Shown: positions 3,618 through 62,500, counted from the stretch's first letter. The stretch: 64,000 nt of DNA from Flaccisagitta enflata (GCA_965153355.1 OZ231126.1:35650001-35714000); one strand, 5' to 3'. Numbers and translations are program-made. The notes: generated by a model not told the origin, from the letters alone.

Positions 3618-3681
<64 letters not shown>

Positions 3682-3763
3682 CGTTGATGAAAGGCGATGA
3701 TGATGATGATGATGATGACGATGATGATGATGATGATAGGCGATGATGATGATGATGATGAGG

Positions 3764-3842
<79 letters not shown>

Positions 3843-3876
3843 CAAATGATGATGATGATGATGATGATGATGATTA
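3618..3876. repeat. (GAT)n microsatellite
   Basis: Direct reading. Confidence 0.95.
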
Positions 3877-4127
3877 TGAATGGGCTGTGTTAAATGGACT
3901 GGGTAAACGGGGTGCTTCATAACAAGGCCGAATAAATGACACTAAATATGTAGCTTGTGGTTGTGGGAGGACAGGGGCAGTAATGCGGGTGAGCGGGGAC
4001 CGTTTTTCGAGGGGCAGGACCTCGTTTGCGTGTAGGCAGGGGGCAGTAATGCTCAGAAATCTCTGTTTTGGTCAATTTCACGTCATTCAAAATGAGGGTT
4101 ACCTACAGATGGTCCGATGGATCGACT

Positions 4128-5747: not shown

Positions 5748-8700
5748 TGCTCTTCCTTCGTTTGCCTCCTCATTCTCTTATTCTTCCCACGCGTTCCCTT
5801 CCTCATCATTTATCTATCTTTCGTTCTTTCGTTCTTTCTTTCTTTCCTCTCGCCATTTCTTTTCTTTCCTTTTTGTCGCCATCATCATGCAAATGGACAG
5901 ACAAGAGAGAAATGTCATGATGTCATGACTAAGCGCCTAAGAATCGTTGAGAAAGAAGTTCGTTACTTTACGATTATTGTACTGGATTTTCTTCCTTCGT
6001 TATAAAAGAAGAAGTCAAGTCACACCCACGTTATTGAAGTCTGAAGTCGCAATTGATAGCACGAAGTTTTCATAAACTTAAGTCATCAATCAACTATACC
6101 GACCAGTTTCGTTTCCTTTATTTAATCACTCCCAGCTCATCAGTGTCCTTCTTTCATTCAATCCAGTGGAGACCGTAACCTCACTCACCCGATTTGCAGG
6201 AATGAGGAATGGTTGGATTATTCAAATGCGACCGTTACCCAAAAATCCCGACGAGACTTGTTTTTCACGATGACCGTCAGGTTTCCCCTCACTGACTCCA
6301 AGCGCAGTTATGCAAATCACAGACTTCCTCTGAAACTTCAAATTTTGACCAGTGACGTCTCTATCCCATTTGGCCTCTCTCTCAGTTTTTCTCCGCCACA
6401 TGCACAAGTTGAGCTAGCTGCATTATTTCTAGTCGCAAAAAAAAAAATTGAGTAACGAGGCTAAAAAAGACTCAATCTTGTGTAAAAAAACCTGGGGAAT
6501 CCAACCGTGACATTTTTAGAGCCCTACGTGGGGGCGTTCAGAAACGGCCCCCAAAAAAACACCCAAAAATGGCTATTTTTGGCCAAAATTTGGTACTTAA
6601 ATGGAGGCCAAGTGTTGAATTTCATACTTGGGGACACTTCAAGATGTAAGAGACTAGTAAAACAAGAATCATGATGATTGGGCTATTGTGGGGTACCTAA
6701 AAAGGCACAAAAAGGGCCCCTAAAGCGAAAAATAAATAGTTTTTTTTTCATTGAGGCCATAAAAATTTTTGGAATGCCTTCAAATTTTAAATGGAAGTTC
6801 CTTATAAATACAACTACCATCATGCAAAAATTTGTGGCCCTCCTTAAATGGCTTCATAGGAAAATTTGGCCACAAAAACAAAAAATCGCTAAAAAAAAAT
6901 CAGTTTTTTTAGTTCATTGACCTAAAAACAATATTTTAAGGTCAGGGTACCCCAATTTTTTTTTCTATTTTGCTAATATAAGATGTTTGGAGGTTCCAAG
7001 AAAAATTTCAGGCCATATTTCCAAAAAATGGCTGAGATATGACCATTTTAAGCGATGTGGTAAAAATGGAAAACGCTAAAAATGGTCATTTTTTGTGATT
7101 TTTTTAAACAATTGGGTGCAAAAAGGGGTCCCGTTTATTTTAATTCATAGTTGGGGACCTTACAAGATGTAAGAGATTATAAAAACAGGAATCATGATGA
7201 TGGGACTATTGTGGGGTACCTAAAAAGGCCCAAAAAGGGCCCTTAAAGCGAAAAATATGTAGTTTTTTTTAAATTGTGACTACAAAAATGAATGGAATGC
7301 CTTCCAATTGGAAATAGAAGTTCCTAATAAATGCAACTACCATCATGTAAAAATTTGTGGCCCCTCTTAAATGGCTTCATAGAAAAATTTGGCCACAAAA
7401 ACCAAAAATCGCTCCAAAAAAATCAGTTTTTCTTGTTCATTGACCTAAAAACAATATTTTAAGGTCAGGGTACCCCATTTTTTTTTCTATTTTGCTATTA
7501 TAACATGTTTGGAGGTTCCAAAAAAAATTCAGGACATATTTAAAAAAAATGACCATTTGAAGTGAAAGGGTAAAACTGAAAAACAACGATAATGGCCATT
7601 TTTTGAGATTCATTGAAAACATTTGGTACAAAAAGAGGTCCCAATAGTTTCAATTCATAGTTAGGGACACTTCAAGATGTAAGAGACTAGGAAAACAAGA
7701 ATCATTATGATGGGGCTATTGTGGGGTGTATTGGGGTGGGGGTGTATGGACTGACGGACCGACGGACGGACCGACGGACCGACGGACAAAGCGGGGTGTA
7801 GAGTCGCGTAGCACGCGACTAAAAAGAAATAACCATCCTGTAAACTGAGCCACGAGAGCCAGAGTGTTAACATCCTTTTTATTCAATAAAAATGGAAATT
7901 AACTGTGCTTACTCTGTTAAACAGTAACTGTACAGAGAATAACAAGAAAAACACATAATTTTGAAATAATTGTACAGGGACTGTTTATTTGCTGTGGCCA
8001 GGCCGAGTTGGCGGGTGCTGTATACAGTGTTTCATACAGGGACTAATTCTTGGAGTAGGATTGTAAGGAAGTTATAAGTGGCTGATCTCAGAAAGCCACT
8101 TTTTCAATTTTTCCTTACTCTTTTACAGCAAGAAAACCCAACACAATTTATTTTATGGATCGCTCACATATATCCATCACCAAAAATGACCATTTTTGGC
8201 ATTTTTCAGTTTTACCACGTTGCTTAAAATGGTGATATCTCAGCCATTTTATGAAAGTATGGCCTGAAATTTTTTTTGGAACCTCCAAACATCTTATATT
8301 AGCAAAACATAAAAAAAATTGGGGTACCCTGACCTTCAAATATTGTTTCTAGGTCAATGAACTGAAAAAACTAATTTTTTTGAACAATTTTTGTTTTTTT
8401 TTGGCCTAATTTTCCTATGAAGCTATTTAAGGAGGGCCAAAAATTTTTACATGATGGTAGTTGCATTAATAGGAACTTCCATTTCTTTTTTGAAGGCATT
8501 CCATTCATTTTTGTAGTCACAATGAAAAAAAAAACTATTTATTTTTTGCTTTAGGGGCCCTTTTTGGGCCTTTTTAGGTACCCCACAATAGCCCCATCAT
8601 AATGATTCTTGTTTTCCTAGTCTCTTACATCTTGAAGTGTCCCTAACTATGAATTGAAACTATTGGGACCTCTTTTTGTACCAAATGTTCTCAATGAATC

Positions 8701-9695
8701 TCAAAAAATGGCCATTATCATCGTTTTTCAGTTTTACCCTTTCACTTCAAATGGTCATATCTCAGCCATTTTTTGGAAATATGTCCTGAAATTTTTTTTG
8801 GAACCTCCAAACATGTTATAATAGCAAAATAGAAAAAAAAATTGGGGTACCCTGACCTTGAAATATTGTTTTTAGGTCAATGAACTTTTTGGAGCGAGTT
8901 GGTTTTTGTGGCCAAATTTTCCTATGAAGCCATTTAAGAGGGGCCACAAATTTTTACATGATGGTAGTTGCATTTATTAGGAACTTCCATTTCCAGTTGG
9001 AAGGCATTCCATTCATTTTTGTAGTCACAATTTAAAAAAAACATATTTTTCGCTTTAGGGGCCCTTTTTGGGCCTTTTTAGGTAATACAATAGTGATTCT
9101 GTTTTTATAATCTCTTACATCTTGTAGTGTCCAACTATGAATTAAAATAAACAGGACCCTTTTTGTACCTAATTTTTAAAAAATCACAAAAAATGACCAT
9201 TTTTAGCGTTTTCCATTTTCACCATGTCGCTTAAAATGGTCATATCTCAGCCATTTTTTGGAAATATGGCCTGAAATTTTTTTTGGAACCTCCAAACATC
9301 TTAAACTAGCAAAATAGAAAAAAAAATTGGGGTACCCTGACCTTAAAATATTGTTTTTAGGTCAATGAACTAAAAAAACTGATTTTTTTGGAGCGATTTT
9401 TGGTTTTTGTGGCCAAATTTTCCTATGAAGCCATTTAAGGAGGGCCACAAATTTTTGCATGATGGTAGCTGCATTTATAAGGAACTTCCATTTCAAATTT
9501 GAAGGCATTCCAATAATTTTTTTGGCCTCAATGAAAAAAAAACTATTTATTTTTCGCTTTAGGGGCCCTTTTTGGGCCTTTTTAGGTACCCCACAATAGC
9601 CCCATCATCATGATTCTTGTTTTAAAATTGTGTTAATGTTGGCAATGAGGAAAAAATGGGAAAGACAATAAAAACAATAAAAGACAAACAATGAA

Positions 9696-9804
9696 TTGTT
9701 GTACCTCAGCCGAGGCTTTGGACTCGCAGGAAAAAGGGTAAACAATACATTACCCCTAATCCTGGCCGGTTTAGGCCCCATCACCGTTACCCAAAGTACA
9801 ACAA
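9696..9804 (-). ncRNA. Twister ribozyme, circularly permuted (P5-type), with P1 reduced to GGCC
   Basis: The minus strand reads UUGUUGUACUUUGG G UAA CGGU GAUGG GGCC U^AA ACCG GC [CAGGA..UCCUG] CGAG UCCAAAGC CUCG G CUGAGGUACAACAA. Helices: P5 14 bp, P2 ACCG/CGGU, P3 hairpin, P4 CGAG/CUCG with L4 UCCAAAGC. Pseudoknots: T1 CCA/UGG and T2 GC/GC. The catalytic G (9782) and the U^A site (9773/9772) are in canonical positions. Confidence 0.85.
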
Positions 9805-10085
9805 ATAATAATGAGCAAAAAATACCAAAATTAAGAGAATACAAGAAATTGGAAGAATGAGGCAGCACAAAGTCGGGTCTAGAAATGAACTTAAAGTGAG
9901 GCAAAGAGTGAAGAGGAAGAGGATCAAAAGGATGAGTCTAGGTCAAAAAGAGAGTGGTCAAATAGAACAGAGTCAGATGGACAGAGGTCTTCAATTGGGG
10001 AAGACAGAGGTCCTGAAATGAAATTGAAAGGTGAAAAAACAGGGTTATGAAATGAAATGGAGATCATAGAGAGAAGAACAATTGA

Positions 10086-10193
10086 ATCACATAGATTACA
10101 TAATTCACTAAGTTAACATAGATTACATGATTTACATAGTTTACAATGTTTACATAGTTTACATAGTTTACATAGTTTACATAGTTTACATAA
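10086..10193. repeat. 12 x 9-bp tandem repeat (TTTACATAG consensus) in the retroelement 3' region
   Basis: Direct reading. Confidence 0.9.
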
Positions 10194-10213
10194 ATACAAA
10201 TAAGATTAAAAAT

Positions 10214-10584
10214 ATATAGACCAAAGCTATGTGAATAGACCAATGATCCGTATAGATGAAAAAGAGAGCCTGCTATGTGAATAGACCAAGCCCAGATTTC
10301 CATCAAAATACAAATTGAAATAGTTTACATATTTACAAATACAAATACAAATAGAGATCAGAGCTATGTGAATAGACCAATGATCCGTATAAATGAAAAA
10401 GAGAGCCTGCTATGTGAATAGACCAAGCCCCAATTTCCATCAAAATACAAAATAATAAATATGTACATAAATATATAAATAAATTACAAAATACAAAATA
10501 TAGGTCAAAGCTATGTGAATAGACCAATGACCTATACTGATGAAATTTGAGCCTGCTATGTGAATAGACCAAGCCCAAATTTCA
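10214..10584 (-). other. Array of six predicted RNA hairpins capped by invariant UUGGUCUAUUCACAUAGC
   Basis: GCTATGTGAATAGACCAA at 10226, 10272, 10363, 10409, 10510 and 10555 (+ coordinates). Each copy sits in a 9-15 bp stem, and several stem variants are G-U wobbles only on the minus strand. Confidence 0.8.
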
Positions 10585-10626
10585 CCAAAATACAGTAAAA
10601 ATTTCCTAGATAACTTAGATGTTTAA

Positions 10627-13023
10627 CTAATTTGCTGGCTGAGAAGAAATAGGAGGAGGAATATTCCTAGATATATTTATAAACCATTTATTAAAATCTA
10701 GAGGAATAGCCCATCTTTGAAATTCTGAAATATACTTATTTACTGATTTACAAAATTCCCTTTTCAGCATTCCAAAATTATAACCTCTGCCCAATAAAGT
10801 ATCCAATAAAAATTTGACCCTCTCCTCAAAATCACTCTGATAATTACAAAGTCTCTGAAATCGGATGATCTGACCATAAAAAACTTTATAACAAATCCTT
10901 GAATATAAGTTACTCTCAAGAAAGGGCAGGGAGATAACATGGAATGGAAAAAGATCAGTCTTACAAAAAACCTTAGTAATAATATTTCCTCCTTCTATTT
11001 TCACCTGCATATCTAAAACATTTGCTGCATCTAACTGGTCATTCTCCTGAGTTAAGGATAAACTGGGAGGATAAATATCCTGAGAAATTGTCAAAAAGTT
11101 TCTTAAATTGATTGACGTGCAATCGTCTCGATATCTTCTGAAAAATTTTAAACTTTCCGCTTCATCTCTTGCCCCTGCTTTTACCCTGTTATCAATATAT
11201 TTGAATTCATCTACCATTAGAGAGCAATCTGAAAGCCAACCTGAACTCTTGCCGCCCATAATTACCCCCAAAGTTTGCTTAAAGATATGCCCAAAAGCCT
11301 TTATGTGGGTATTACGGATCAAATAATCAACCATCTCAAGAAATTCACCAACTGAATACACCAGTCCTTCGGAGTCGTTTGCAACCCACCAAGACTTCTC
11401 ATGACCAATCCTTAGAAATCCCATACCACAGTTCTTACTAAGCTTAGCAAGTAACCAATTAATATTAGACATCAGATGATCATGGTCAAAAAGGGTGTAT
11501 AAAGTTGAAAAATCATTGATCGAGATAGTATCAGCGACACCATATGCCAAACTAAACATATCCTTAACTTCAATACTAGTCTGAACATCAAAATAATAAC
11601 GTACACCCGAAAACTCCATATTCTTATTGCACAAATTCCTGAAATGTTCCTTACACATTTTCAAAACACTAGCTACAATCCTATCCAATTTTGAAGTGAC
11701 CGTGCTTACATTTCCCGCTATGTAACGCATCTTAGGTGGATTCTTATGAAATTTCGGAGTTTGATACAAAAGTGCCAGTTTTTCCTCCCTATTGTTGGGC
11801 TCAATCCTAAACTGCAAAAGATCCGTCTTAATTCTCGAAACTATCTCATTCTCTGTGTTTGGTGAAAAACTGTAAGTCTCATTCCCGGGGTTCTCATTAT
11901 TCAGTCCTAACTCTTCAGCCAATTTTAGAAAATAAAATTTCTTGCATGTGAAAGCAAAATTCCCAGCGGCCTTATCTACAACAGTGATAACATACCTATC
12001 CTGAAGCTTCGCTAACTCTGCCTTACATTCCTGACGTGTAAGCACTGGCTGGCTATAACTGGTACCTTCCTTACAAGCCATTAACTTATTACTGAAATTC
12101 CTGAAGAGAGCGCCCTTCCATTTTTTAAAAGCCGTCCGAGAAATTCTGAACTTACCTGACAGTTTCACAACAAAGCTGTCTATTTCCTTTTTCACCTGTG
12201 TCCTGATATTCTCAACGTTAAGATAAGGGTTCTCTCTAAACTTCGTACCAAAAGAGCAAATCCCACGTAGCTGAGGGTCACCAATGATTTCAAGATCACC
12301 AGTGATGATATGTCCAAAACGATCATGTTTAAAGGGCGAATCATCGCATGAACAGTCCATATTCTGGATATCAGCATAAGAAAGACTACCAGTATTTCTC
12401 AAAACTTTATTATAATTTAAAATCTTAGATCCAATAGTCTTTCCAAAGCTATAGATCAGCCGAATATCAACTTTCTCCTTTATGTCAGATGGCAGGTGTT
12501 TCTGCACATCTGAACAGTTGATGATCGAATTAAGATTCACATCACCCATAATCTTATGCAAGAATTTTGCATTCCAAGAAACAGATTCCCTCATACTCTT
12601 TGATGGTTTTACCTTTTGCAAAAAATCTACCCGGGACTTGATAACAAAGCGTAAATTCTCATTCAAAGTTGAAAAATGGGTCGACATGAAAAATCGTTCC
12701 AAATATCTCCTTTGAGTTGAGAAAACTATGTCCTCAATCCCGCGTAAACCAATTGCCTCAAAGAGCAGAGCCAATTCATTTCTGAAATTCAAAAAACTCT
12801 CATCAGTTATGCCACCTCTACGCTTTTTCCTATGCCTGCCATTCCTATGTTTACCTGAACCTTCCTGACAGATATTTACAACTTTATACATATTGTAATC
12901 AACATATCGACCATCCGTAACATTCCCATGCAGACCAAAACCGCTAATCTTATCATTCAATCCTAGAGGATGAGCAGTACGTAGATAGCTAATCCAAAAA
13001 AGTTCTCTTTCAACTCTTCTCTT
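10627..13023 (-). CDS. Naiad-type PLE polyprotein, 5'-truncated: end of GIY-YIG endonuclease, CxC linker, reverse transcriptase
   Basis: The frame stays open upstream of the listed 777-aa ORF, giving KRRVERELFWISYLRTAHPLGLND (GIY-YIG C-terminal E-x-x-W-I...P-x-G-L-N). It continues with DCSCDDSPFKHDRFGHIITGDL (CxC linker), DKAAGN, PKFHKNPPKMRYI, DFSTLY, GVIMGG, RYRDD, LDM and GQIIRF. No internal stop; ends in TAG. Confidence 0.9.
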   Translation of the reverse strand, partial: KRRVERELFWISYLRTAHPLGLNDKISGFGLHGNVTDGRYVDYNMYKVVNICQEGSGKHRNGRHRKKRRGGITDESFLNFRNELALLFEAIGLRGIEDIVFSTQRRYLERFFMSTHFSTLNENLRFVIKSRVDFLQKVKPSKSMRESVSWNAKFLHKIMGDVNLNSIINCSDVQKHLPSDIKEKVDIRLIYSFGKTIGSKILNYNKVLRNTGSLSYADIQNMDCSCDDSPFKHDRFGHIITGDLEIIGDPQLRGICSFGTKFRENPYLNVENIRTQVKKEIDSFVVKLSGKFRISRTAFKKWKGALFRNFSNKLMACKEGTSYSQPVLTRQECKAELAKLQDRYVITVVDKAAGNFAFTCKKFYFLKLAEELGLNNENPGNETYSFSPNTENEIVSRIKTDLLQFRIEPNNREEKLALLYQTPKFHKNPPKMRYIAGNVSTVTSKLDRIVASVLKMCKEHFRNLCNKNMEFSGVRYYFDVQTSIEVKDMFSLAYGVADTISINDFSTLYTLFDHDHLMSNINWLLAKLSKNCGMGFLRIGHEKSWWVANDSEGLVYSVGEFLEMVDYLIRNTHIKAFGHIFKQTLGVIMGGKSSGWLSDCSLMVDEFKYIDNRVKAGARDEAESLKFFRRYRDDCTSINLRNFLTISQDIYPPSLSLTQENDQLDAANVLDMQVKIEGGNIITKVFCKTDLFPFHVISLPFLESNLYSRICYKVFYGQIIRFQRLCNYQSDFEERVKFLLDTLLGRGYNFGMLKREFCKSVNKYISEFQRWAIPLDFNKWFINISRNIPPPISSQPAN

Positions 13024-13945
13024 TCTAGTCTCTTACATCTTGAAGTGTCCCCAACTATGAAATTGAACACTTGGCCACTATTTAAGTACCAAATTTTGGC
13101 CAAAAATACCTAAAAATAGCCATTTTTGGGTGTTTTTTGGGAGCCGTTTCTAAACGCCCCCGCGTAGGGCTCTAAAAATGTCACGGTTGGATTCCCCAGG
13201 TTTTTTTACACAAGATTGAGTCTTTTTTAGCCTCGTTACTCAATTTTTTTTTTTTTTTTTAACGTAGCCCAACTTGTGCATGTGGCGGAAAGTGACCAGT
13301 TTTCACTCGTATTTGATGTCTGGTCGATTGACATTTTCAAACATTTCGCTTGAATCTTTCGTAATCATTCCTCTCATTTTCGAATGAAGATGGATGAAAA
13401 CGAAATGCTGCTTGCATCACCAACACTTTTTTTGCCATCCTCCACTCTTTCAAATCTGTAATTGGAAATAAAAGGGTACTACTGCCTGGATTAAAAAAAG
13501 AAAGATGAAAATTTCTTTCTGATTTAGACAAATCAAGTTTCCGGTTTCTTAAATTGCAGACCCAGAGAAAAAGAAATAAAGATTAGAAACGTGGATTGAG
13601 GAAAACGTTTTTAGCTACCGGGCAAATAATAAAAACTTTCAAAATCTGGTTTTTGAGAAGACGGCACTTAGACGCGATGTGTCTAACGGAAAACTCGCTC
13701 CTGGTCTAGAAATTTCAAAACTCGAAAATTCAAAAAAAGGTGATCCACAAGAAAAGAATGTCGCGAAGAAAGAAAGGAAAGAATAACAAAGGAAGTTGAT
13801 TTATTCTTTTTGTCCTATCATTTCCGATGCGTTCCTTTTCAACAATCAAAAAAATCGGAAGAAAAACATTTTCATTTATCATAAACAACATTCATGATAA
13901 AATCTAATAACATTCATTATAAAATCTACAAATAACTTGTCAAGA

Positions 13946-14177
13946 ATGAAGATGGCATCTCGTCTTTTTGAGAGAGGCGTTCTCCAGAACGTCTCTTTGA
14001 TGACTGTTTTAATGATTTTTCTTGCCATTAATGGACAATCCTCGGCGCTGAACCACTCCGTTAACAAATGCATCGATTCCAACGCACCGGACAGTTTTCT
14101 ACTCAATTGCTCTCATGGAGCCGTTATCAGTATCGACTCAGTCTCAGCCATTTATCTGTATACGGACGTGCAAAAAG
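13946..14177 (+). CDS. SUEL-lectin/Ig/Ig transmembrane receptor, coding exon 1 (signal peptide and start of SUEL domain)
   Basis: MKMASRL...SLMTVLMIFLAINGQSSA hydrophobic leader, then LLNCSHGAVISIDSV. Donor G|GTAAT, phase 1. Confidence 0.8.
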
Positions 14178-14282
14178 GTAATCTGAGTTGAAACAACTTT
14201 ACAAAAGGAGGCCACAACTCCCCAATATTTAAAGAATAGTCTCGCAAGCTTTCCGAGCTTTCCGAGTTGCTCACGCCCATTC

Positions 14283-14589
14283 TTTTTAGATGCGTCCGTC
14301 AGGAACGCATCTCTATAAGAGGGTCTGTCCGTCCCTCCGTCGGTCCGTCCGTCGGTCCGTCCGTCGGTCCGTCCGTCCGTAACGCCTGTGCGAAAACCGC
14401 GTTTCTCGGCTGAAATAGGCCACGGTGAGATCCTGCACTGAATCTAATGATCAACAAACGTGTTTTGAGAGCCTCCACTTTTCTGTCGCTTCATCTGTCT
14501 GTCCATCGTTATGTCCATACATCTGACATATTTAGTCAATACACGCAGAGACACAGTCCGGACGCATCGTTGCCCGGTCGGGCTTGTTT
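14283..14589 (+). mobile_element. Helentron/DINE-1-like non-autonomous element (HINE)
   Basis: T-run start, AGATGCGT..ACGCATCT inverted repeat, (GTCC/GTCG)n tract, subterminal GACGCATC and a ...GGGCTTGTTT end. A related copy lies on the minus strand at 34651-34929. Confidence 0.65.
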
Positions 14590-15559
14590 ATGGACAAACG
14601 AAATGCCTACCTGACTGAACTATCTGCTTGACTGCATACCTCATTAGTATAGGCTCATCCTGTTTTGTCTGAGATGTACCTCATATTTAAAGTATAGGGT
14701 GGACTGGCCGATATAGCTATACCATCAAGTATGCATAAAATATTTTACCAATGTTATAATCAAAGACTACGTGTGCACAATCAAAGGACCACCTTAAAGA
14801 AACTCTTTCATAGAGCGCTTTTTGAAAAAAATCAAATTTTTGTTTTATATGATGTATTTGCATCATGTCTAATGATCCTTTGGCATCATATGACATTGGA
14901 CAACATTACATTGCAACCCAAAAAAAACTAAGACAAGGACAAAAGCCTGTGGAGCGTTAACTGGTGTTTAATGCGCACCCATCACAACTATTCTTAGAAT
15001 TATCAAAAATTCCACTTCAACCCTTATCAAAGAGCGGCTCAACAGATACAAATCATGAGCATGAAAAACCTATGATTTTAGGCTATTTATGAACTGTGCA
15101 AGTGACAAGAAAGAGTACCAGATTTGTGTGCTGAATTGTGCCCCCACATTCCTCACACCTTTCTGATCTTCCCATTGTAAAATGCTCATAACATCCATAG
15201 CTTTAAATCAAGATTTTTCTCACCAATTGAGAATAATCCACCAAGTTGTAAACTCTTAGTCAACAGATACAAATTAAGAGCAAGAAAAACCTATATATGT
15301 ATCATATTTGCATCATATGTAGCACACTGGCTTCATATGATGCACTAGCATCATAAGCTAATGCATCATATAATGTATGATGCTAGTGCATCATATGATG
15401 CAAATGCATCATGTTCAACTAAAATGTCATTGTTTTCAAAAAGCGCCCTATGAATGATTTTCTTCTGAATGGTTATTGAATTATACAAACATGAGTTTGA
15501 CATAACTGCAAAAAGACCTAGAGTAATGTCATTCTCATCCTGAATGGTCCCTTAGACAG

Positions 15560-15780
<221 letters not shown>

Positions 15781-19183: not shown

Positions 19184-21455
19184 TACGTCCCATGAAGCGC
19201 CCCAAACTTCGACACTAACTCTCACCAATCTTACCATAGTTGAGGCTTGGTAAAAAAATATTCCATGTAAAATTTCAGGCCTCTGGAACAGCAGGAACCT
19301 TTGTTAGGGTGACTATGAAGTTTCCATAGAAATCTATGGTAGAGACAAAATTTGCATAATAGAAATATTGATTCCAATGCTAATTTAATACAAACTTCAG
19401 CATCACCCTAACAAAGGTTCCTGCTATCTCAGAGGCCCAAAATTTTGCATGGAATATTTTTAGTCGCGTGCACGCGACTCTACAACCCGCTCTGTCGGTC
19501 GGTCGGTCGGTCCGTCGGTCGGTCGGTCGGTCGGTAACAATTTGCTTTTTTGTGTCGTTTTTGGTCATTTTTGGTTGCTTTTAGTCATTTTTGGTCATTT
19601 TTGGTTGCTTTCAGTCATTTTTGGTCATTTTTGGTCATTTTGGTCATTTTGGTCATTTTGGTCATTTTGGTCATTTTGGTCATTTTTGGTCATTTTTGGT
19701 CATTTGTGATCATTCATAATCATTTTTAATCATTTCTAATCATTTTTAATCATTTTTGATCATTTTTGGTCATTTTTGGTCATTTTGATCATTTTCGTCA
19801 TTTTGGCCATTTTGGTCATTTTGGTCATTTTTGGTCATTTTTGATCATTTTTGATCATTTTTTGATTATTTTGGGTCATTTCAGTTTATTTTTGATCATT
19901 TTTTTTGTCATTTTTGGTCATTTTTGGTCATTTTGGTCATATTGGTCATTTTGGTCATTTTTGATCAATTTTGGTCATATTTAATCATTTTTGGTCATTT
20001 TTGGTCATTTTTGGTCATTTTGGGTCATTTTGGGTCGTTTGGGTCATTTTGTGTCATTTTTGGATATTTCTGGCTATTTTTGATCATTTTTTGTCATTTT
20101 TGATCTTTTTTGATCATTTTTGGGCATTTTGGTCATTTTGGTCATTATTGGTCATTTTTGGTCATTTTTGGTCATTTTTGGTCATTTTTGGACTTTTCAG
20201 GTCATTTGAGGTCATTTTAGGTCATTTTAGGTCACTTTGATCATTTTTGGTCATTTTTGGTCATTTTTGGTCATTTTTGGTCATTTTTGGTCGTTTTTGT
20301 TCATTTTTGTCATTTTTGGTCATTTTTGGTCATTTTTGGTCATTTTTGGTCATTTTTGGACATTTTTGTTCATTTTTGGTCATTTTGGTCATTTTTGGTC
20401 ATTTTTGATCATCTTTGGTCATCTTTGGTCATTTTGGCCATATTGGTCATTTTTGGTCATCTTTGGTCATCTTTGGTCATTTTGGTCATTTTGGTCATTT
20501 TGGTCATTTTTGGTCATTTTTGGTCATTTTTGGTCATTTTGGTTAAAGTCTGCTGGTTAAAGTCTGCTGGTTAAATCTGCTGGTTGAAGTCTGCTGGTTT
20601 AAATCTAATGGTTTAAGTCTGCAGGTCTAATGGTTTAAGTCTGCTGGTTTAAGTCTGCTGGTTAAAATGATATTGAAGATAAGTATGGTTTAAGTCTGGT
20701 TTAAGTCTGGTTTAAGTATGGTTTAAGTCTGGTTTAAGTCTGGTTTAAGTCTGGTTTAAGACTGGTTCATGTCTGATTTATGTCTGGTTTAGGTCTGGGT
20801 TAGGTCTGGTGTATGTCTGGTTTGTGTCTGGTTTTTGTTTGATTTAGGTCTGATTTAGGTCTGATTTAGGTCTGGTTTTGGTCTGGTTTTGGTCTGGTTT
20901 GAGTCTGGTTTGAGTCTGGTTTGAGTCTGGTTTGAGTCTGGTTTGAGTCTGGTTTGAGTCTGGTTTGAGTGGTTTGAGTCTGGTTTGAGTCTGGTTTGAT
21001 TCTAGTTTGAGCCTGGTTTGAGCCTGGTTTGAGCCTGGTTTCGGTCTGGTTTAAGTCTGGTTTGAATCTGGTTTGAGTCTGGTTTGAGTCTGGTTTGAGT
21101 CTGGTTTGAGTCTGGTTTGAGTCTAGTTTGAGTCTGGTTTCAGTCTGGCTTAAATCTGGTTTATGTCTGGTTTATGTCTGATTTAGGTCTGGTTTCGGTC
21201 TGGTTTAATTCCGGTTTGAGTCTGGTTTGAGTCTGGTTTGAGTCTGGTTTGAGTCTGGTTTGGGTCTGGTTTGGGTCTGTTTTGGGTTGCTTTTAAGTCT
21301 GATTTTCGATAAAAAGATACAATAAGGAGTCAGGTCAGTTCAGTTATTTTTGTCCTGCACGCGACTTATAGGTGTTGGCCTTGTTTTACCAAGCCTCAAC
21401 TATGGTAAGATTGGTGAGAGCCATAGTCCAAGTTAGGGGCGCTTCAAGGGACATA
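19184..21455. mobile_element. Palindromic MITE split by a HINE insertion
   Basis: 19184-19460 plus 21386-21455 form an inverted-repeat element. A copy lacking the insertion lies at ~37043-37336. Confidence 0.7.
19461..21385 (+). mobile_element. HINE/DINE-like element with expanded internal satellites
   Basis: Starts AGTCGCGTGCACGCGACT plus (GTCG)n and ends GCACGCGACTTATAGGTGTTGGCCTTGTT, inserted in a T-run. Internal (GGTCATTTTT)n at ~19555-20545 and (GTCTGGTTTRA)n-type repeats at ~20545-21300. Confidence 0.75.
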
Positions 21456-41587: not shown

Positions 41588-41770
<183 letters not shown>

Positions 41771-54084: not shown

Positions 54085-54895
54085 CGGCGTTGTCAAACGG
54101 CGCTGTCAAACGGCGCTGTCAAACGGCGCTGTCAAACGGCGTTGTCAAACGGCGTTGTCTAACGGCGTTGTCTAACGGCGTTGTCTAATGGCGTTGTCTA
54201 ATGGCGTTGTCTAACGGCGTTGTCTAACGGCGTTGTCTAACGGCGTTGTCTAACGGCGTTGTCTAACGGCGTTGTCTAACGGCGTTGTCTAACGGCGTTG
54301 TCTAACGGCGTTGTCTAACGGCGTTGTCTTACGGCGTTGTCTTACGGCGTTGTCTAACGGCGTTGTCTAACGGCGTTGTCTAACGGCGTTGTCTAACGGC
54401 GTTGTCTAACGGCGTTGTCAAACGGCGTTGTCAAACGGCGTTGTCAAACGGCGTTGTCAAACGGCGTTGTCAAACGGCGTTGTCAAACGGCGTTGTCAAA
54501 CGGCGTTGTCAAACGGCGTTGTCAAACGGCGTTGTCAAACGCGTTGTCAAGCGGCGTTGTCAAGCGGCGTTGTCAACGCGTTGTCAAGCGGCGTTGTCTA
54601 GCAGCGTTGTCTAACGGCGTTGTCTAACGGCGTTGTCTTGCGTTGTCTGCGGCGTTGTCTAACAGCGTTGTCAAGCGGCGTTGTCAAACGGCGTTGTCAA
54701 ACGGCGTTGTCAAACGGCGTTGTCAAACGGCGTTGTCAAACGGCGTTGTCAAACGGCGTTGTCAAACGGCGTTGTCAAACGGCGTTGTCAAACGACGCTG
54801 TCAAACAACGCTGTCAAACGACGCTGTCAAACGACGCTGTCAAACGACGCTGTCAAAGGGCATTGTCAAATGGCATTGTCAAATGGTATTGTCAA
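54085..54895. repeat. 13-bp satellite (GGCGTTGTCWAAC)n
   Basis: Direct reading. Confidence 0.95.
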
Positions 54896-54904
54896 GCGCT
54901 GACA

Positions 54905-55950
54905 AAGTTTCAACCAAATCATTTAAAAAATACCAAAGCTTTGCCAATTTTTCACTTTTAGATGGTAGGCTGTTTAGGTGGTAGGCCAGTTTGGCGGTTT
55001 TGCATGCTAAAATCTTCTAGAATCACAAACATATGTTTAGTCCTTCTGTTTAAAGACTTTATACCAAGTTTTGACCAAATTGATTGAAAAATGCTGAAGT
55101 TTTGCACGTTTTTCACTTTTAGGCTGGTAGGCTGGTTGGGTGGTAGGCCGGTTTGGTCAGTTAGCATGCTAAAATCTTTATGAATCAAATTCATATGTTG
55201 AGTCCTTCCATTTAGAGACTATATACTAAGTTTCAACCGAATCAGTTGAAAAATGCCAAAGTTATGCATGTTTCTCACTTTTAAGCTAGTAGGCTGGTTG
55301 GGTGGTAGGCCGGTTTGGCTGGTTAGCATGCTATAATCTTTACAAATCAAATACATATGTTGAGTCCTTCCATTTAGAGACTACATACCAAGTTTCAACC
55401 AAATCGGTTGAAAAATGCTGAAGTTATGCACGTTTTTCACTTTTTGGCTGGTAGGCCAGTTGGGTGGTAGGTCGGTTTGGCCGGTTAGTATGCTAAAATC
55501 TTTACAATTAAAATACATATGTTGAGTCCTTCCATTTAGAGACTACATACCAAGTTTTAACCAAATCCGTTGAAAAATGCCGAAGTTATGCACGTTTTTC
55601 ACTTTTTGGCTGGTAGGCTAGTTGGGTGGTAGGCCAGTATGGCCGGTTAGCATGCTATAATCTTTACAATTCAAATACATATGTTGAGTCCTTCCATTTA
55701 GAGACAACATACCAAGTTTTAACCAAATCCGTTGAAAAATGCCGAAGTTATGCACGTTTTTCACTTTTGGCTGGTAGGCTAGTTGGGTGGTAGGCCGGTT
55801 TGGCTGGTTAGCATGCTAAAATCTTTACAATTCAATTACATATGTTGAGTCCTTCCATTTAGAGACTACATACCAAGTTTCAACCAAATTGGTTGAAAAA
55901 TGCCAAAGTTATGCACGTTTTTCACTTTTAGGCTGGTAGGCTGGTTGGGC
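54905..55950. repeat. ~162-bp tandem repeat, about 6 copies
   Basis: AAGTTTCAACCAAATC marker at ~54905, 55066, 55228, 55390, 55552, 55714 and 55875. Confidence 0.9.
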
Positions 55951-56189: not shown

Positions 56190-57765
56190 TCTCCCTGGTT
56201 GACCAGGGATTTTTGATTTTTCCCTGGTTAACCAGGGAATTATATATGATGCCCCAGTTGACTGGGAATAGCATTTTTCATTGGTTAACCAGGGATTTTT
56301 GCAAAATTCCCTGGTTAACCAGGGATTTTCACAAAATTCCCTGGTCAACCAGGGATTTTCGCAAACCAGGGATTTTTCTGTAATTCCCTGGTTAACCAGG
56401 GATTTCTCTAAAATTCCCTGGTTAACCAGGGATTTTTCAGAAATTCCCTGGTTAACCAGGGATTTTCGCAAAATTCCCTGGTTAACCAGGGATTTTTCAA
56501 AATTCCCTGGTTAACCAGGGATTTCTCTAAAATTCCCTGGTTAACCAGGGATTTTTCAGAAATTCCCTGGTTAACCAGGGATTTTTCAGAAATTCCCTGG
56601 TTAACCAGGGATTGTTCAAAAATTCCCTGGTTAACCAGGGATTTTTGCAAAATTCCCTGGTTAACCAGGGATTTTTCGCAAAATTCCCTGGTTAACCAGG
56701 GATTCTCGCAAAATTCCCTGGTTAACCAGGGATTTTTTCAAAATTCCCTGGTTAACCAGGGATTTTTGGAAAATTCCCTGGTTAACCAAGGATTTTTCCA
56801 AAATTCCCCGCTTAACCAGGGATTTTTCCGAAATTCCCTGGTTAACCAGGGATTTTTCCATAATTCACTTGTTAACCAGGGATTTTCGCAAAATTCCCCG
56901 GTTAACCAGGGATTATTCCTAAACTCCTCACTTAACAAGGATTTTTCCGAAATTCCCCGGTTAACCAGGGATTTTTCCGAAATTCCCCGGTTAACCACGG
57001 ATTTTTCCGAAATTCCCTGGTTAACCAGGGATTTTTCCATAATTCACTTGTTAACCAGGGATTTTTGCAAAATTCCCCGGTTAACCAGGGATTTTTCCAA
57101 AATTCCCTGGTTAACCAGGGATTTTTGCAAAATTCCCTGGTTAACCAGGGATTTTACCATTATTCACTTGTTAACCAGGGATTTTCGCAAAATTTCTCGG
57201 TTAACCAGGGATTTTTGACTAATTCCCTGGTTAACCAGGGATTTTTCTAAAATTCCCTGGTTAACCAGGGATTTTTGAAAAATTCCTTGGTTAACCAGGG
57301 ATTTTTCCGAAATTCCCTGGTTAACCAGGGATTTTTCCAAAATTCCTTGGTTAACCAGGGATTTTTCAGAAATTCCCTGGTTAATCAGGGATTTTTCCGA
57401 AATTCCCTGGTTAACCAGGAATTTTTCAATAATTCCCTGGTTAACCAGGGATTTTTCAATAATTCCCTGGTTAACCAGGGATTTTCGCAAAATTCCCTGG
57501 TTAACCAAGGATTTTCTAAAATTCCCTGTTAACCAGGGATTTTTGAAAATTCCCTGGTTAACCAAGGATTTTTGAAAAAAAACCAGGGAAGAGGCCAAAA
57601 TTCCCTGGTTAACCAGGGATTTTTCCAAAAATTTTCACCAGAGGATTTCCAAAAATCCCTGGTTTCAGGAATTTTAAAAATTCCCTGGTTAACCAGGAAT
57701 TTTTCTTAAAACCAAATTCCACCAGGGATTTTAAACATAAATCCTTGGTTAACCAGGGAATTTTT
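56190..57765. repeat. 30-bp satellite with an 18-bp palindromic core TCCCTGGTTAACCAGGGA
   Basis: Direct reading. Confidence 0.95.
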
Positions 57766-59429: not shown

Positions 59430-62400
59430 TCACTGGATTCCTTGTCTCTTCTGCCCAAGGCAGATTTGCCACTGGATTCCTTATCCCCTCTGCCTGAGGA
59501 AGGCTTGTCAATGGATTCTTTGTCCCTTCTGCCCAAGGAAGACTTGTCAGTGGTTACCTTGTCCCTTCCACCCAAGGCAGACTTGTTATTCAATTCCTAG
59601 CCACAGGATTTGTCACTGGATTCCTCTGAGGCAATGTTTTCAAATCATCATATGACAACTATTTACAATTTTTTTCCCTGACTTAACATTTGTTACCATC
59701 TCTTAACATCGTCACTTTTCATCATATGCTAGTCACATTGACATCATATAACAACTATTTACAATTTTTTTCCTTGACTTAACATTTTTTACCTTCTCTT
59801 AACATCGTCACTTTACATCATATGCTAGTCAGATGAAATTCTCTTCTCTGACTCTTTTATTTTTATGTAGGAAATATGGGGGCGCTTATTATTCTCGCGC
59901 TTATGAGTGTAGGGCGCTTATGTTTCTCGCGCTTACCATTCTGAAGCTTCTGTTTCTCGTGCTTCCACTGAGGCGCTTATTATTCTGGTACCCCTTAATT
60001 CCTTATCCCTTCTGACCAAGGCAGACTTTTCACAGGATTCCTTGACACTTCTGTTGAAGGTTAGCTTGTCACTTGATTCCTTGTCCCTTCTGCCGGCAAG
60101 ACATGCCACTGGATCTCTTGTCTCTTCTGCCCAAGGCAGACTTGCTACTGGATTCCTTGTCCCTTCTGCCAAAGGCAGACTTACAACTGGATTCCTTGTC
60201 CCCTAAGCCAAAGGCCACCAGATTCCTTGTCCCTTATGAAAAAGACAGATTTGTCACTGGATTCCTTGTCCCTTCTGAACAAGACAGATTTGCCACTGGA
60301 TTCCATGTCCCTTCCAAACAAGACAGATTTGCCACTGGATTCCTAGTCCCTTCTGCCCAAGGCAGACTGGTCACTGGATTCTTTGTTCCTTCTGCCTGAG
60401 ACAGACTAGTCAATGGATTCCTTGTCCCTCCTGACTGAGGCAGACTTGTCCATGGATCCCTTGTCCCTCCTGACTGAGGCAGACTTGTCAATGGATTCCT
60501 TGTCCCTTCTGACTGAGGCAGACTTGTCAATAGATTCCTTGTCCATTCTGACTGAGGAAGACTTGTCAATGGATTCCTTGCCCCTGCTGACTGAGGCAGA
60601 CTTGTCAATGGATTCCTTGTTCCTGCTGACTGAGGCAGACTTGTCAATGGATTCCTTGTCCCTTCTGACTGACGCAGACTTGTCAATGGATTCCTTGTCC
60701 CTTCTGACTGAGGCAGACTTGTCAATGGATTCCTTGTCCCTTCCGACTGAGGCAGACTTTTCAATGGATTCTTTGTCCCTGCTGACTGACGCAGACTTGT
60801 CAATGGATTCCTTGTCCCTTCTGACTGAGGCAGACTTGTCAATGGATTCCTTGTCCATTCTGACTGAGGAAGACTTGTCAATGGATTCCTTGTCCCTGCT
60901 GACTGAGGCAGACTTGTCAATGGATTCCTTGTTCCTGCTGACTGAGGCAGACTTGTCAATGGATTCCTTGTCCCTTCTGACTGACGCAGACTTGTCAATG
61001 GATTCCTTGTCCCTTCTGACTGAGGCAGACTTGTCAATGGATTCCTTGTCCCTTCCGACTGAGGCAGACTTGTCAATGGATTCCTTGTCCCTTCCGACTG
61101 AGGCAGACTTTTCAATGGATTCTTTGTCCCTGCTGACTGAGGCAGACTTGTCAATGGATTCCTTGTCCCTTCTGACTGAGGCCGACTTGTCAATGGATTC
61201 CTTGTCCCTTCTGACTGAGGCAGACTTGTCAATGGATTCCTTGTCCCTTCTGACTGAGGCAGACTTGTCAATGGATTCCTTGTCCCTTCTGACTGAGGAA
61301 GACTTGTCAATGGATTCCTTGTCACTTCTGACTGAGGCAGACTTGTCAATGGATTCCTTGTCCCTTCTGACTGAGGCAGATTTGTCAATGGATTCCTTGT
61401 CCCTTCTGACTGAGGCAGACTTGTCAATGGATTCCTTGTCCCTTCTGACTGAGGCAGACTTGTCAATGGATTCCTTGTCCCTTCTGACTGAGGCAGACTT
61501 GTCAATGGATTCCTTGTCCCTTCTGACTGAGGCAGACTTGTCAATGGATTCCTTGTCCCTTCTGACTGAGGAAGACTTGTCAATGGATTCCTTGTCCCTT
61601 CTGACTGAGGCAGACTTGTCAATGGATTCCTTGTCCCTTCTGACTGAGGCAGACTTGTCAATGGATTCCTTGTCCCTTCTGACTGAGGCAGACTTGTCAA
61701 TGGATTCCTTGTCCCTTCTGACTGAGGCAGACTTGTCAATGGATTCCTTGTCCCTTCTGACTGAGGAAGACTTGTCAATGGATTCCTTGTCCCTTCTGAC
61801 TGAGGAAGACTTGTCAATGGATTCCTTGTCCCTTCTGACTGAGGCAGACTTGTCAATGGATTCCTTGTCCCTTCTGACTGAGGCAGACTTGCCACTGGAT
61901 TCCTTGTTCCTTCTGCCCAAGGCAGACTTGCCACTGGATTTTTTGTCCCTTGTGCCCAAGGCAGGCTGGCTACTGGATTCCTTGTCCCTTCTACCCAAGG
62001 CAGACTTGCCACTGGATTCCTTGTCCCTTCTGCCCAAGGCAGACGTACCACTGGATTCCTTGTCTCTTCTGTACAAGGCAGACTTGCCACTGGATTCTTA
62101 TCCCTTCTGCCTGAGGTAGGCTTGTCAATGGATTCTTCGTCCCTGCAGCCCAAGGAAGACTTGTCAGTGGTTACCTTGTCCCTTCCACCCAAAGCAGACT
62201 TGTTATTCAATTCCTAGCCACTTGATTCATCACTGGATTCCTTTCCACTTAATTCCTTATCCCTTCTGACCAAGGCAGACTTTTCACTGGATTCCTTGAC
62301 GCTTCTGTCGAAGCTAAGCTTGTCACTTGATTCCTTGTCCCTTCTGCCAGCAAGACTTGCCACTGGATCTTTTGTCTCTTCTACCCAAGGCAGACTTGCC

Positions 62401-62500
62401 ACTGGATTCCTTGTCCCTTCTGCCCAAGGCAGACATGCCACGAGATTCCTTGTCCCTTCTGAAAAACACAGATTTGTCACTGGCTTCCTTGTCCCTCCTG
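59430..62500. repeat. 39-bp minisatellite (GCAGACTTGTCAATGGATTCCTTGTCCCTTCTGACTGAG)n, homogeneous core ~60400-61890
   Basis: Direct reading; degenerate copies flank the core. Confidence 0.95.

What the first reader, a model, noticed from the sequence alone, without database searches (positions are those of the whole stretch)
10214..10584. Six hairpins with an invariant 18-nt cap immediately 3' of the RT ORF
Seen: starting ~42 nt after the stop codon, UUGGUCUAUUCACAUAGC occurs six times without a single change, as three dimers (45-46 nt within a dimer, 137-147 nt between dimers). It contains an inner CUAU-UCAC-AUAG tetraloop hairpin. The enclosing stems are of two unrelated alternating types (UAUAGGUCA/UGACCUAUA; UGAAAUUUGGGC/GCUCAAAUUUCA) and vary among copies while keeping most pairing, with G-U wobbles on the sense strand. 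Inference: this is a selected multivalent RNA element, such as RT-binding, packaging or priming signals, rather than passive tandem duplication. I do not recognise it as SECIS, IRE or histone stem-loop.
Basis: partly seen in the sequence, partly recalled or inferred. Interest (0 to 1): 0.75.

Follow-up and report, generated by a model that had tools for sequence, protein, structure and literature searches.

The report
Conserved hairpin array in Naiad retrotransposon tail
Just after the gene of a Penelope-like (Naiad) jumping element lie six RNA hairpins that all carry the same 18-letter top; this top looks preserved by selection and is probably a protein-binding handle on the element's RNA, but what it does is untested.

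Summary
TTGGTCTATTCACATAGC occurs six times without a change, only on the minus strand, as three A/B hairpin pairs in a 137-147-nt tandem repeat. The array starts about 40 nt after the stop codon.

The ORF is a 5'-truncated Naiad-type Penelope-like element (PLE) with a TERT-like RT. Its full-length relatives carry an N-terminal GIY-YIG domain. The copy sits inside a ~504-nt satellite. Its 3' UTR is 1003 nt, and the array lies 590 nt from the 3' end.

All six hairpins fit one structure: an 18-position outer stem, a GU bulge, a 4-bp inner stem and a UCAC loop.
- 82.6% of cells pair, against 32-44% when partners are slid.
- 0 of 36 cap columns vary among the three units, against 27 of 63 stem columns.
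- G·U outnumbers A·C 16 to 2.
- The sense strand folds at z -8.3, the antisense at -4.9, and the rest of the UTR at -0.6.

There is no Rfam match and no hammerhead core. Contigs of three DNA runs show a multi-copy family with variable unit number. None of the 40 listed variants falls in a cap.

Conservation across families could not be tested, and nothing shows RT binding. My best reading is a selected sense-strand protein-binding RNA module. It is moderately interesting.

The parts
9624..13024 (-). 5'-truncated Naiad-type Penelope-like element copy (about 3.4 kb) inserted in a ~504-nt satellite. The 5' junction is about 13024 (+/-3) and the 3' end is at 9624.
   Evidence: The satellite unit matches up to 9623 and resumes at about 13025, with no obvious target-site duplication (alignment, blastn). 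tblastn of the full-length relative P0002, residues 189-982, maps to 13026..10633.
10627..13032 (-). Open frame of 801 codons (stop to stop) encoding the C-terminal remnant of the GIY-YIG domain, a KR-rich block, the CxC motif, GxKF, DKA and a TERT-like RT. The stop codon TAG is at 10629-10627.
   Evidence: 111 relatives, best 65% identity; invariant C227, C229, D353-K354-A355, R633-Y634-x-D636-D637; 31 of 33 aligned members hit PF01541 and 2 of 33 hit RVT_1; TERT top matches.
10214..10592 (-). Array of three tandem units (137-147 nt), each holding an A-type and a B-type hairpin.
10538..10587 (-). Hairpin A1: 18 outer pairs, GU bulge, 4-bp inner stem, UCAC loop. Cap at 10555-10572.
   Evidence: CM 73.2 bits.
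10498..10537 (-). Hairpin B1. Cap at 10510-10527.
10392..10441 (-). Hairpin A2. Cap at 10409-10426.
10351..10390 (-). Hairpin B2. Cap at 10363-10380.
10255..10304 (-). Hairpin A3. Cap at 10272-10289.
10214..10253 (-). Hairpin B3. Cap at 10226-10243.
10089..10192 (-). 9-nt tandem repeat, (AAACUAUGU)n on the sense strand, about 11.6 copies, directly 3' of the array.
9624..10088 (-). Rest of the 3' UTR down to the element's 3' end. It shows no unusual folding.
   Evidence: z -0.63; 24 of 100 shuffles fold as well. One search shows that 9900-10050 is as multi-copy as the rest.

Best explanation
The six hairpins are a selected RNA structure module on the sense transcript of a Naiad-type Penelope-like retrotransposon. 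They sit in its 3' UTR. Each hairpin presents the same 18-nt top, UUGGU-CUAU-UCAC-AUAG-C, which forms a closing G-C pair, a GU bulge, a 4-bp stem and a UCAC loop, on a helix whose sequence is free to change.

The sequence of the top is fixed while the supporting helix only has to pair. The most likely role is therefore a sequence-specific protein-binding site present in several copies. The most likely partner is the element's own protein. That would let the TERT-like RT seize its own RNA as template, giving cis-preference in target-primed reverse transcription. A host RNA-binding protein is the next candidate.

Shown here: the motif, the common structure, the strand bias, the low variability of the top, membership of the host element in the Naiads, and the absence of a hammerhead.

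Inferred: that a protein binds, which protein it is, and any effect on retrotransposition.

My odds: about 0.7 that it is a selected sense-strand RNA element, about 0.5 that it is a protein-binding site, and about 0.35 that the partner is the element's own RT protein.
For: 1. The motif is six-fold exact and far beyond chance.
2. All six hairpins align without gaps and fit one structure. 82.6% of 132 cells pair, against 31.8-43.7% when partners are slid by 1-3 columns. Twelve of 22 pairs show changes on both sides. 0 of 500 shuffles reach the observed pairing or covariation score. RNAalifold on the three units predicts the same two hairpins.
3. Among the three units, 0 of 36 cap columns vary, against 27 of 63 columns within 18 nt of a cap and 61 of 116 of all non-cap columns.
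4. Strand bias: 16 G·U cells against 2 A·C cells. The sense strand folds at -106.3 kcal/mol (z -8.33) and the antisense at -60.0 (z -4.90). The remaining 467 nt of the 3' UTR fold at z -0.63.
5. The family is multi-copy. 281, 64 and 116 contigs of three DNA runs from three studies lay on 9900-10800 at 80% likeness or more. Contigs with 10-15% other letters still join the ORF end to hairpin A1. Unit number varies between copies. None of the 40 listed substitutions and none of the 12 listed indels falls in the 108 cap positions (P = 0.005 if the 40 were spread evenly over the 901 nt).
6. The ORF product is a TERT-like RT. TERTs fill the top 13 rows, Z 14.7-19.2. TERT and R2 RTs are solved in complex with structured RNA, as shown by the entry titles 6zdq and 8ibw.
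7. Naiads lack the hammerhead that other PLEs carry in this region (PMC8557442, passages and section 6). Some other cis element in the 3' region is therefore plausible.
Against: - All structural evidence comes from one element copy. The six hairpins represent two stem lineages of three members each, and the structure was derived from the same sequences it is tested on.
- No DNA of other family members or sister families could be fetched, so conservation of the cap across families is untested.
- The run-based variant list is incomplete (69 further variants were not shown). Within the array alone, 0 of 7 listed variants in caps is not significant (P = 0.09).
- The array lies 590 nt upstream of the element's 3' end. 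Known RT-recognition stem-loops of LINEs sit at the very 3' end (recalled).
- Five distant Naiad-like loci (26-28% protein identity) have no comparable array after their ORFs.
- No RNA evidence covers the array. The only RNA contig laid covers 10706-10800.
- The window is full of tandem and palindromic satellites, so the genome readily makes such repeats.
Confidence: 0.4

Rival explanations
1. It is a passive minisatellite. A palindrome-containing unit expanded by slippage or unequal exchange in the 3' UTR of the master element, and it has no function of its own.
For: TRF sees an ordinary 137-nt tandem repeat. Unit number varies among genomic copies, with joints 10594->10343, 10189->10320 and 10037->10320. 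The window holds many other tandem repeats, including a 30-nt palindromic unit x45. 3'-end tandem repeats are listed for some Chlamys PLEs in the supplement table of PMC8557442.
Against: Uniform decay does not give 0 of 36 variable cap columns next to 27 of 63 variable stem columns. Unit-wide conversion would homogenise the stems too. The A and B caps are identical although their stems are unrelated. The G·U over A·C bias (16 to 2) and the large sense/antisense energy gap point to constraint on one RNA strand.
Confidence: 0.15
2. The caps bind a host RNA-binding protein that serves stability, nuclear export, localisation or translation of the transcript, rather than binding the element's own RT.
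For: The same structural evidence applies as for the best explanation. In addition, the array begins right after the stop codon and far from the 3' end. The 1-kb 3' UTR has no AAUAAA or AUUAAA. The supplement table of PMC8557442 notes 'no start codon' for several Naiad consensus sequences, so unusual expression signals are conceivable.
Against: No known RBP site was recognised. Rfam gave nothing at E <= 10. There are no data on expression of the array.
Confidence: 0.2
3. It is a DNA-level element. The repeated motif is a binding site for a transcription factor, so the array acts as a promoter or enhancer. In the partial-tandem (pLTR) arrangement of PLEs it would lie upstream of the next copy.
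For: PLE insertions are often partial tandems, so 3' sequences come to lie upstream of a full copy (PMC8557442 section 6). Repeated identical short motifs are typical of enhancers. Cap invariance is a sequence constraint, not a pairing constraint.
Against: A DNA site does not need enclosing stems that keep pairing through changes on both sides. It also does not explain the G·U-only tolerance on the sense strand. This copy is not in a tandem arrangement.
Confidence: 0.1
4. It is an unrecognised self-cleaving or processing RNA that replaces the hammerhead ribozyme of canonical PLEs. It would cut unit-length RNA from tandem transcripts, in a retrozyme-like way.
For: It occupies the region where other PLEs carry hammerheads. 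It occurs in pairs within a tandem repeat of a size like non-LTR retrozyme units (bioRxiv 10.64898/2026.07.22.740005, abstract and passages). It has strictly invariant nucleotides in a bulge and a loop.
Against: There is no CUGANGA...GAAA core in the 3' UTR on either strand. No ribozyme family of Rfam matches, even at E <= 10. A simple bulged hairpin offers no obvious catalytic pocket. The contig data cannot show RNA ends.
Confidence: 0.07
5. The cap is a primer-binding-site-like sequence. Positions 2-18 begin with TGG, so their complement ends in ...ACCA, like the 3' end of a tRNA. The length, 17-18 nt, is that of retroviral primer-binding sites.
For: Only the sequence itself and recalled knowledge of tRNA 3' ends and primer-binding sites.
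Against: PLEs are thought to prime on the nicked target (PMC8557442). The site is buried in a hairpin. No tRNA gene is in the window and no tRNA set of the organism was available. A leading TGG is a 1-in-64 coincidence.
Confidence: 0.03

Closest known systems
Hammerhead ribozyme motifs in the pseudo-LTRs of canonical Penelope-like elements, and non-LTR retrozymes
   Same: A small structured RNA motif in the 3'/pLTR region of a PLE. It occurs in pairs and in tandem units of about 140 nt, with invariant nucleotides in unpaired positions.
   Different: There is no CUGANGA/GAAA core and no Rfam hammerhead hit. The structure is a single bulged hairpin, not a three-way junction. Naiads are reported to lack canonical hammerheads (PMC8557442).
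3' UTR stem-loops recognised by the RT of 'stringent' LINEs (L2/UnaL2 type) and the R2 3' UTR RNA
   Same: A hairpin in the 3' UTR of a target-primed retroelement with a sequence-specific top on a helix of free sequence. The proposed role, template recognition by the element's RT, is the same.
   Different: Those elements are single and lie at the very 3' end where reverse transcription starts. This part is recalled: only the title of Hayashi et al. 2014 was seen, in the reference list, and the PDB title 8ibw. Here there are six copies, 590-960 nt from the 3' end. Binding is untested.
Telomerase RNA stem-loops and three-way junction bound by TERT
   Same: The protein next door is a TERT-like RT. 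The top structural match is Candida TERT bound to the TWJ fragment of its RNA, Z 19.2.
   Different: No sequence or structural likeness of the RNAs was shown. The domain N-terminal to the RT core, folded alone, gave no TRBD match. There is no template function.
SECIS elements in the 3' UTR of selenoprotein-coding Naiads
   Same: A functional hairpin in a Naiad 3' UTR (PMC8557442 abstract and supplement table).
   Different: The frame has no in-frame UGA. No AUGA/GA core is seen in the stems and no Rfam SECIS hit was found. SECISearch3 was not run.
Multi-copy operator or packaging hairpins (MS2/PP7-type) of RNA viruses
   Same: Several identical hairpin tops with a bulged purine and a small loop, on helices of variable sequence.
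   Different: This is an analogy only (recalled). The element has no capsid or Gag gene: the frame is a single EN-RT protein.

Membership tests
Naiad clade of Penelope-like elements (host element) | GIY-YIG endonuclease N-terminal to the RT | tested here: met
   31 of 33 aligned members hit PF01541, in their N-terminal part. The window copy is 5'-truncated and keeps only the end of the domain (RELFWISYLRTAHPLGLN). The rest is missing because P0002 residues 1-188 have no match.
Naiad clade of Penelope-like elements (host element) | CxC motif, and DKG changed to DKA, between EN and RT (PMC8557442 section 6) | tested here: met
   DCSCDD has C227 and C229 invariant. VVDKAAG has D353, K354 and A355 invariant in 33 sequences.
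Naiad clade of Penelope-like elements (host element) | RT most like telomerase RT | tested here: met
   The model has pLDDT 83.8. By Foldseek the top 15 rows are TERTs, best E 9e-11. By VIA-align the top 13 rows are TERTs, Z 14.7-19.2. Sequence-only searches were weak: there was no Pfam hit for the window ORF, 2 of 33 relatives hit RVT_1, and the PDB profile search found nothing.
Naiad clade of Penelope-like elements (host element) | No canonical hammerhead ribozyme | tested here: met
   No Rfam hit at E <= 10 in 9000-15000. No CUGANGA..GAAA in the 3' UTR on either strand.
Hammerhead ribozyme | Catalytic core CUGANGA ... GAAA at a three-helix junction | tested here: not met
   The CUGAUGA on the antisense strand of unit 1 is not kept in units 2 and 3 and is not followed by GAAA after the helix.
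Non-LTR retrozyme | Tandem units that each carry a type I hammerhead | tested here: not met
   Tandem units are present, but no hammerhead is.
SECIS element | In-frame UGA codons in the upstream ORF, and a kink-turn core (AUGA / GA) | tested here: not met
   The 801-codon frame is open under the standard code. No Rfam SECIS match was found. No dedicated SECIS search was run.
LINE/R2-type 3' RT-recognition stem-loop | Lies at the extreme 3' end, where reverse transcription is primed | tested here: not met
   The last hairpin ends at 10214 and the element ends at 9624, so it is 590 nt away.
LINE/R2-type 3' RT-recognition stem-loop | Specific binding by the element's RT, and requirement for retrotransposition | not testable with these tools
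   Needs EMSA or CLIP and a retrotransposition or TPRT assay.
Conserved cis-regulatory RNA structure (general) | Covariation and conservation across independent family members | tested here: inconclusive
   Within the array the result is positive. Across genomic copies the evidence is only indirect. No DNA from other families was obtainable.

The most novel reading that the evidence does not exclude
Naiads, the large PLE clade that does without hammerhead ribozymes, instead carry an array of identical-topped hairpins. These hairpins are the RNA handle gripped by their telomerase-like RT. That would be a retrotransposon counterpart of the stem-loops by which TERT holds telomerase RNA. It would show how a TERT-related enzyme chooses its template before telomerase RNA existed.
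Probability: 0.12. Interest if true: 0.8.

Novelty: new variant of a known kind. Interest (0 to 1): 0.45.

Why it matters
Penelope-like elements are the closest relatives of telomerase RT. How their RT finds its RNA template is unknown. The role of the hammerheads in most PLEs, and how Naiads manage without them, are stated open points in PMC8557442.

This work gives a defined, short RNA element in a Naiad 3' UTR that appears to be under selection. It is a concrete object to test with EMSA, CLIP or deletions for template recognition by a TERT-like RT. If it binds the RT it could also serve as a portable tag for PLE-based tools.

If it turns out to be specific to this one family, it is a modest annotation of one retrotransposon family in a marine organism.

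Tried and rejected
**Searches for other copies**
- No whole genome is held for the window.
- The exact-motif scan of viral contigs gave 5 loci, all one phage coding site without hairpin context, so a chance match.
- The exact-motif scan of metagenome contigs gave 9 loci, none with the stems or a second copy, so chance matches.
- The protein-profile scan of viral contigs found no relative.
- The protein-profile scan of genome contigs gave 6 distant loci (22-28% identity) in records titled as MAGs. The 900 nt after the ORF of five of them show no comparable array, and model R1 finds nothing there. These loci are too distant to speak for or against this family.
- I searched the protein collection with the spurious 81-codon frame that runs over the array, hoping to catch other copies called as genes. 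There were no hits.
- The covariance model R1 of the six hairpins finds only those six in the window (next best E 0.37).

**Literature**
- Supplement of PMC8557442: 12-, 13- and 9-letter parts of the motif were absent. Line breaks or cut cells could hide them.
- Paper searches found no description of such hairpins and no printed motif.

**TRBD idea**
- The whole-protein model aligns to TERT chains from model residue ~196, while other RTs start at ~355-400.
- The domain 77-360 folded alone (pLDDT 93) gave no TERT match. The best VIA Z was 6.5, on a 65-residue helical piece, and the best Foldseek E was 0.25. The idea is therefore not supported and remains inconclusive.

**Run data**
- The only RNA contig laid (run X20) covers 10706-10800 and nothing of the array. 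Contigs cannot show RNA ends, so nothing can be said on expression or cleavage of the array.
- I did not use the depth figures as copy numbers.

**Rejected identities**
- SECIS, IRE, histone stem-loop and known ribozymes: no Rfam match at E <= 10.
- No tRNA gene is in the window.

Full report
**1. The observation**

The 18-mer TTGGTCTATTCACATAGC occurs six times in the 64-kb window, all on the minus strand. The + strand coordinates are 10226, 10272, 10363, 10409, 10510 and 10555 (starts). Allowing up to three mismatches finds no further copy. Dinucleotide-preserving shuffles give a mean of 0.03 matches, and 0 of 100 reach six.

Read on the minus strand, the copies form three pairs. Start-to-start spacing is 45-46 nt within a pair and 137-147 nt between pairs. 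Tandem Repeats Finder reports a 137-nt period x 2.7 at 10214-10594. The only clarification is that everything is read on the minus strand.

**2. The surroundings**

The frame 10627-13032 (minus strand) is open for 801 codons under the standard code. It has no Pfam hit of its own. It does have 111 relatives in the metagenome-derived protein collection, the best at 65% identity and typically 930-990 residues long.

- In an alignment of 33 of them, 31 hit the GIY-YIG domain PF01541, in their N-terminal part, and 2 hit RVT_1.
- The AlphaFold model (pLDDT 83.8) matches telomerase RTs best. By Foldseek the top 15 rows are TERTs, best E 9e-11. By VIA-align the top 13 rows are TERTs, Z 14.7-19.2.
- The frame carries the diagnostic Naiad features named in section 6 of PMC8557442 (read in full): a CxC motif (DCSCDD), DKG changed to DKA (VVDKAAG), GxKF (GTKFRE) and a KR-rich block. 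These positions are invariant in the 33-sequence alignment.

tblastn with the full-length relative P0002 aligns only its residues 189-982, so the copy is 5'-truncated, as that paper says Naiad insertions usually are.

A ~504-nt satellite runs up to 9623 and resumes at about 13025. The insertion therefore spans about 9624-13024 and has no obvious target-site duplication. The 3' UTR is 1003 nt. The array begins about 40 nt after the stop codon and ends 590 nt before the element's 3' end. Directly 3' of the array lies a 9-nt repeat, (AAACUAUGU) x 11.6.

**3. The structure**

The six hairpins, each taken as the cap plus 18 nt on either side, align without a gap. They fit one structure:
- 18 outer positions in a fixed register,
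- a closing G-C pair inside the cap,
- a GU bulge,
- the 4-bp CUAU/AUAG stem,
- a UCAC loop.

On this structure 82.6% of 132 cells form standard pairs, against 31.8-43.7% when the 3' partners are slid by 1-3 columns. Twelve of 22 pairs have changes on both sides. 0 of 500 column shuffles reach the observed pairing, the number of double changes or the covariation score. RNAalifold on the three units predicts the same two hairpins independently.

Most of the double changes are differences between the two stem types, A and B. Within a type there are few. One example is G-C in B1 against A-U in B2 and B3 at columns 15/42. The number of independent events is therefore small, and the structure was derived from these same sequences.

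**4. Constraint on the cap**

In an alignment of the three units, 0 of 36 cap columns vary. By contrast, 27 of 63 columns within 18 nt of a cap vary, as do 61 of 116 of all other columns. The invariance of the cap is therefore not explained by a recent expansion of the array. The A and B caps are identical although their stems are unrelated.

**5. Which strand**

The stems hold 16 G·U cells and 2 A·C cells (binomial P 0.0013 if the cells were independent, which they are not fully).

| Stretch folded as RNA | Energy (kcal/mol) | z-score |
|---|---|---|
| Sense strand of 10200-10600 | -106.3 | -8.33 |
| Antisense strand of 10200-10600 | -60.0 | -4.90 |
| Remaining 467 nt of the 3' UTR | not noted | -0.63 |

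This points to a structure that matters on the sense transcript, not to a DNA palindrome.

**6. Other copies**

No genome is held for this window. Runs holding the stretch are marine metagenomes and a coded 'organism A'.

I laid Logan contigs of three DNA runs from three studies and one RNA run on 9900-10800 at 80% likeness or more. This gave 281, 64, 116 and 1 contigs, with a broad spread of identity. The family is therefore multi-copy and diverged.
- Joints show copies with extra units (10594->10343, in three contigs of X3 and one of X1) and with fewer units (10189->10320, 10037->10320).
- Contigs with 10-15% other letters still link the ORF end to hairpin A1, so the array belongs to the family rather than to this copy alone.
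- Of the 40 best-supported substitutions listed, none lies in the 108 cap positions. Of the 12 listed indels, none does either.
- If the 40 were spread evenly over the 901 nt, P = 0.005. Within the array alone the count is 0 of 7, P = 0.09.
- The tool did not show 69 further variants, and contigs drop rare variants, so this is supportive but not decisive.
- The single RNA contig covers only 10706-10800, so nothing is known about transcription of the array.

**7. Attempts to get relatives' DNA failed**

- Exact-motif scans of viral and metagenome contigs returned only chance matches without hairpin context.
- Profile scans found no relative among viral contigs.
- Profile scans found six very distant relatives (22-28% identity) in records titled as MAGs. 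The 900 nt after the ORFs of five of them have no comparable array.
- A search with the spurious frame over the array found nothing.

**8. What it is not**

- Rfam (4227 families) gives no credible match in 9000-15000, even at E <= 10.
- The 3' UTR has no CUGANGA...GAAA core on either strand. The antisense CUGAUGA of unit 1 is not kept in units 2 and 3.
- The frame has no in-frame UGA, so a SECIS is not expected.
- No tRNA gene is in the window.
- The motif is not printed in any paper of the library. It is not found in the text of the supplement of PMC8557442, although line breaks could hide it there.
- Searches for Naiad or PLE together with 3' UTR stem-loops or ribozymes found no description of such an element.

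**9. Interpretation**

The pattern is a fixed sequence in the bulge, the top stem and the loop, carried on helices that only need to pair, on the sense strand, and in several copies. That is the pattern of a sequence-specific protein-binding hairpin.

The neighbouring protein is a TERT-like RT. TERT and R2 RTs are known to hold structured RNA (entry titles). Naiads are reported to lack the hammerhead found in this region of other PLEs.

I therefore favour a cis-acting handle by which the element's protein, or less likely a host factor, recognises the transcript. This is inference. The position 590 nt from the 3' end speaks against a simple 'start site of reverse transcription' role.

I tested one mechanistic lead, a TRBD-like domain upstream of the RT core. 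The whole-protein alignments to TERT start at residue ~196. The domain 77-360 folded alone (pLDDT 93) has no TERT match, and indeed no clear match at all.

The rivals are a passive minisatellite, a host-factor site, a DNA-level enhancer, an unknown ribozyme and a tRNA primer site. They are listed with their odds in the rival explanations.

**10. Verdict**

This is a real and statistically robust feature: a probable selected RNA structure module in the 3' UTR of a Naiad PLE family, not described in the literature I could search. Its function is unproven and conservation across families is untested. Novelty: a new variant of a known kind (a retrotransposon 3' UTR recognition hairpin). Interest: 0.45.

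Noticed in passing
window 6600-9623 and 13025-13137: A ~504-nt satellite-like tandem repeat (three units at 8166-9623, with inverted pieces near 7579-7700) is the insertion target of the Naiad copy. The junctions show no obvious target-site duplication. The target is not the (TA)n microsatellite that the literature gives as the usual Naiad target.
   Followed up: partly
window 10089-10192 (minus strand): The 9-nt repeat (AAACUAUGU) x 11.6 directly 3' of the array contains CUAUGU, which is complementary to the ACAUAG of the cap's 3' half. It may derive from the cap by slippage, or it could compete with the inner stem.
   Followed up: no
window 11953-12804 (minus strand; ORF residues 77-360): The domain between the GIY-YIG remnant and the RT core holds the CxC and GxKF motifs. 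It is predicted with pLDDT 93 but has no clear match among solved structures (best VIA Z 6.5 on a 65-residue helical piece; best Foldseek E 0.25). It is a candidate nucleic-acid-binding domain of unknown fold.
   Followed up: partly
window 9624-10626 (minus strand): The 1003-nt 3' UTR has no AAUAAA or AUUAAA signal. The spacers between hairpin pairs contain UGUACAUA and UGUAAAUA, which fit the Pumilio consensus UGUANAUA (the consensus is recalled). This may be chance in AU-rich sequence.
   Followed up: no
window 56364-57705: A 30-nt palindromic unit (AACCAGGGATTTTTCCAAAATTCCCTGGTT) is repeated about 45 times. It gives the weak hairpin-model hits seen in that region.
   Followed up: no
window 19547-20540, 20682-21284, 54085-55949, 59998-62500: Several long tandem arrays are present: 10-nt x 101, 11-nt x 55, 13-nt x 63 followed by 162-nt x 6.5, and 39-nt x 64. 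Long microsatellites are also present: (TC) x 107 at 15563-15776, (TG) x 90 at 41590-41769, and (ATG) x 86 at 3618-3879. The region is very rich in repeats.
   Followed up: no
window 10706-10800: One contig of a marine metatranscriptome run (X20) matches the 3' end of the ORF without a difference. This is a weak hint that the family is transcribed. DNA carry-over cannot be excluded.
   Followed up: no
L006, L009, L010 (one record titled as a Stappiaceae MAG), L007, L008: Records labelled as bacterial MAGs carry PLE-like RT genes (26-28% identity to the window ORF), several per record, with eukaryote-like flanks. The contigs are probably of eukaryotic origin or mis-binned.
   Followed up: no
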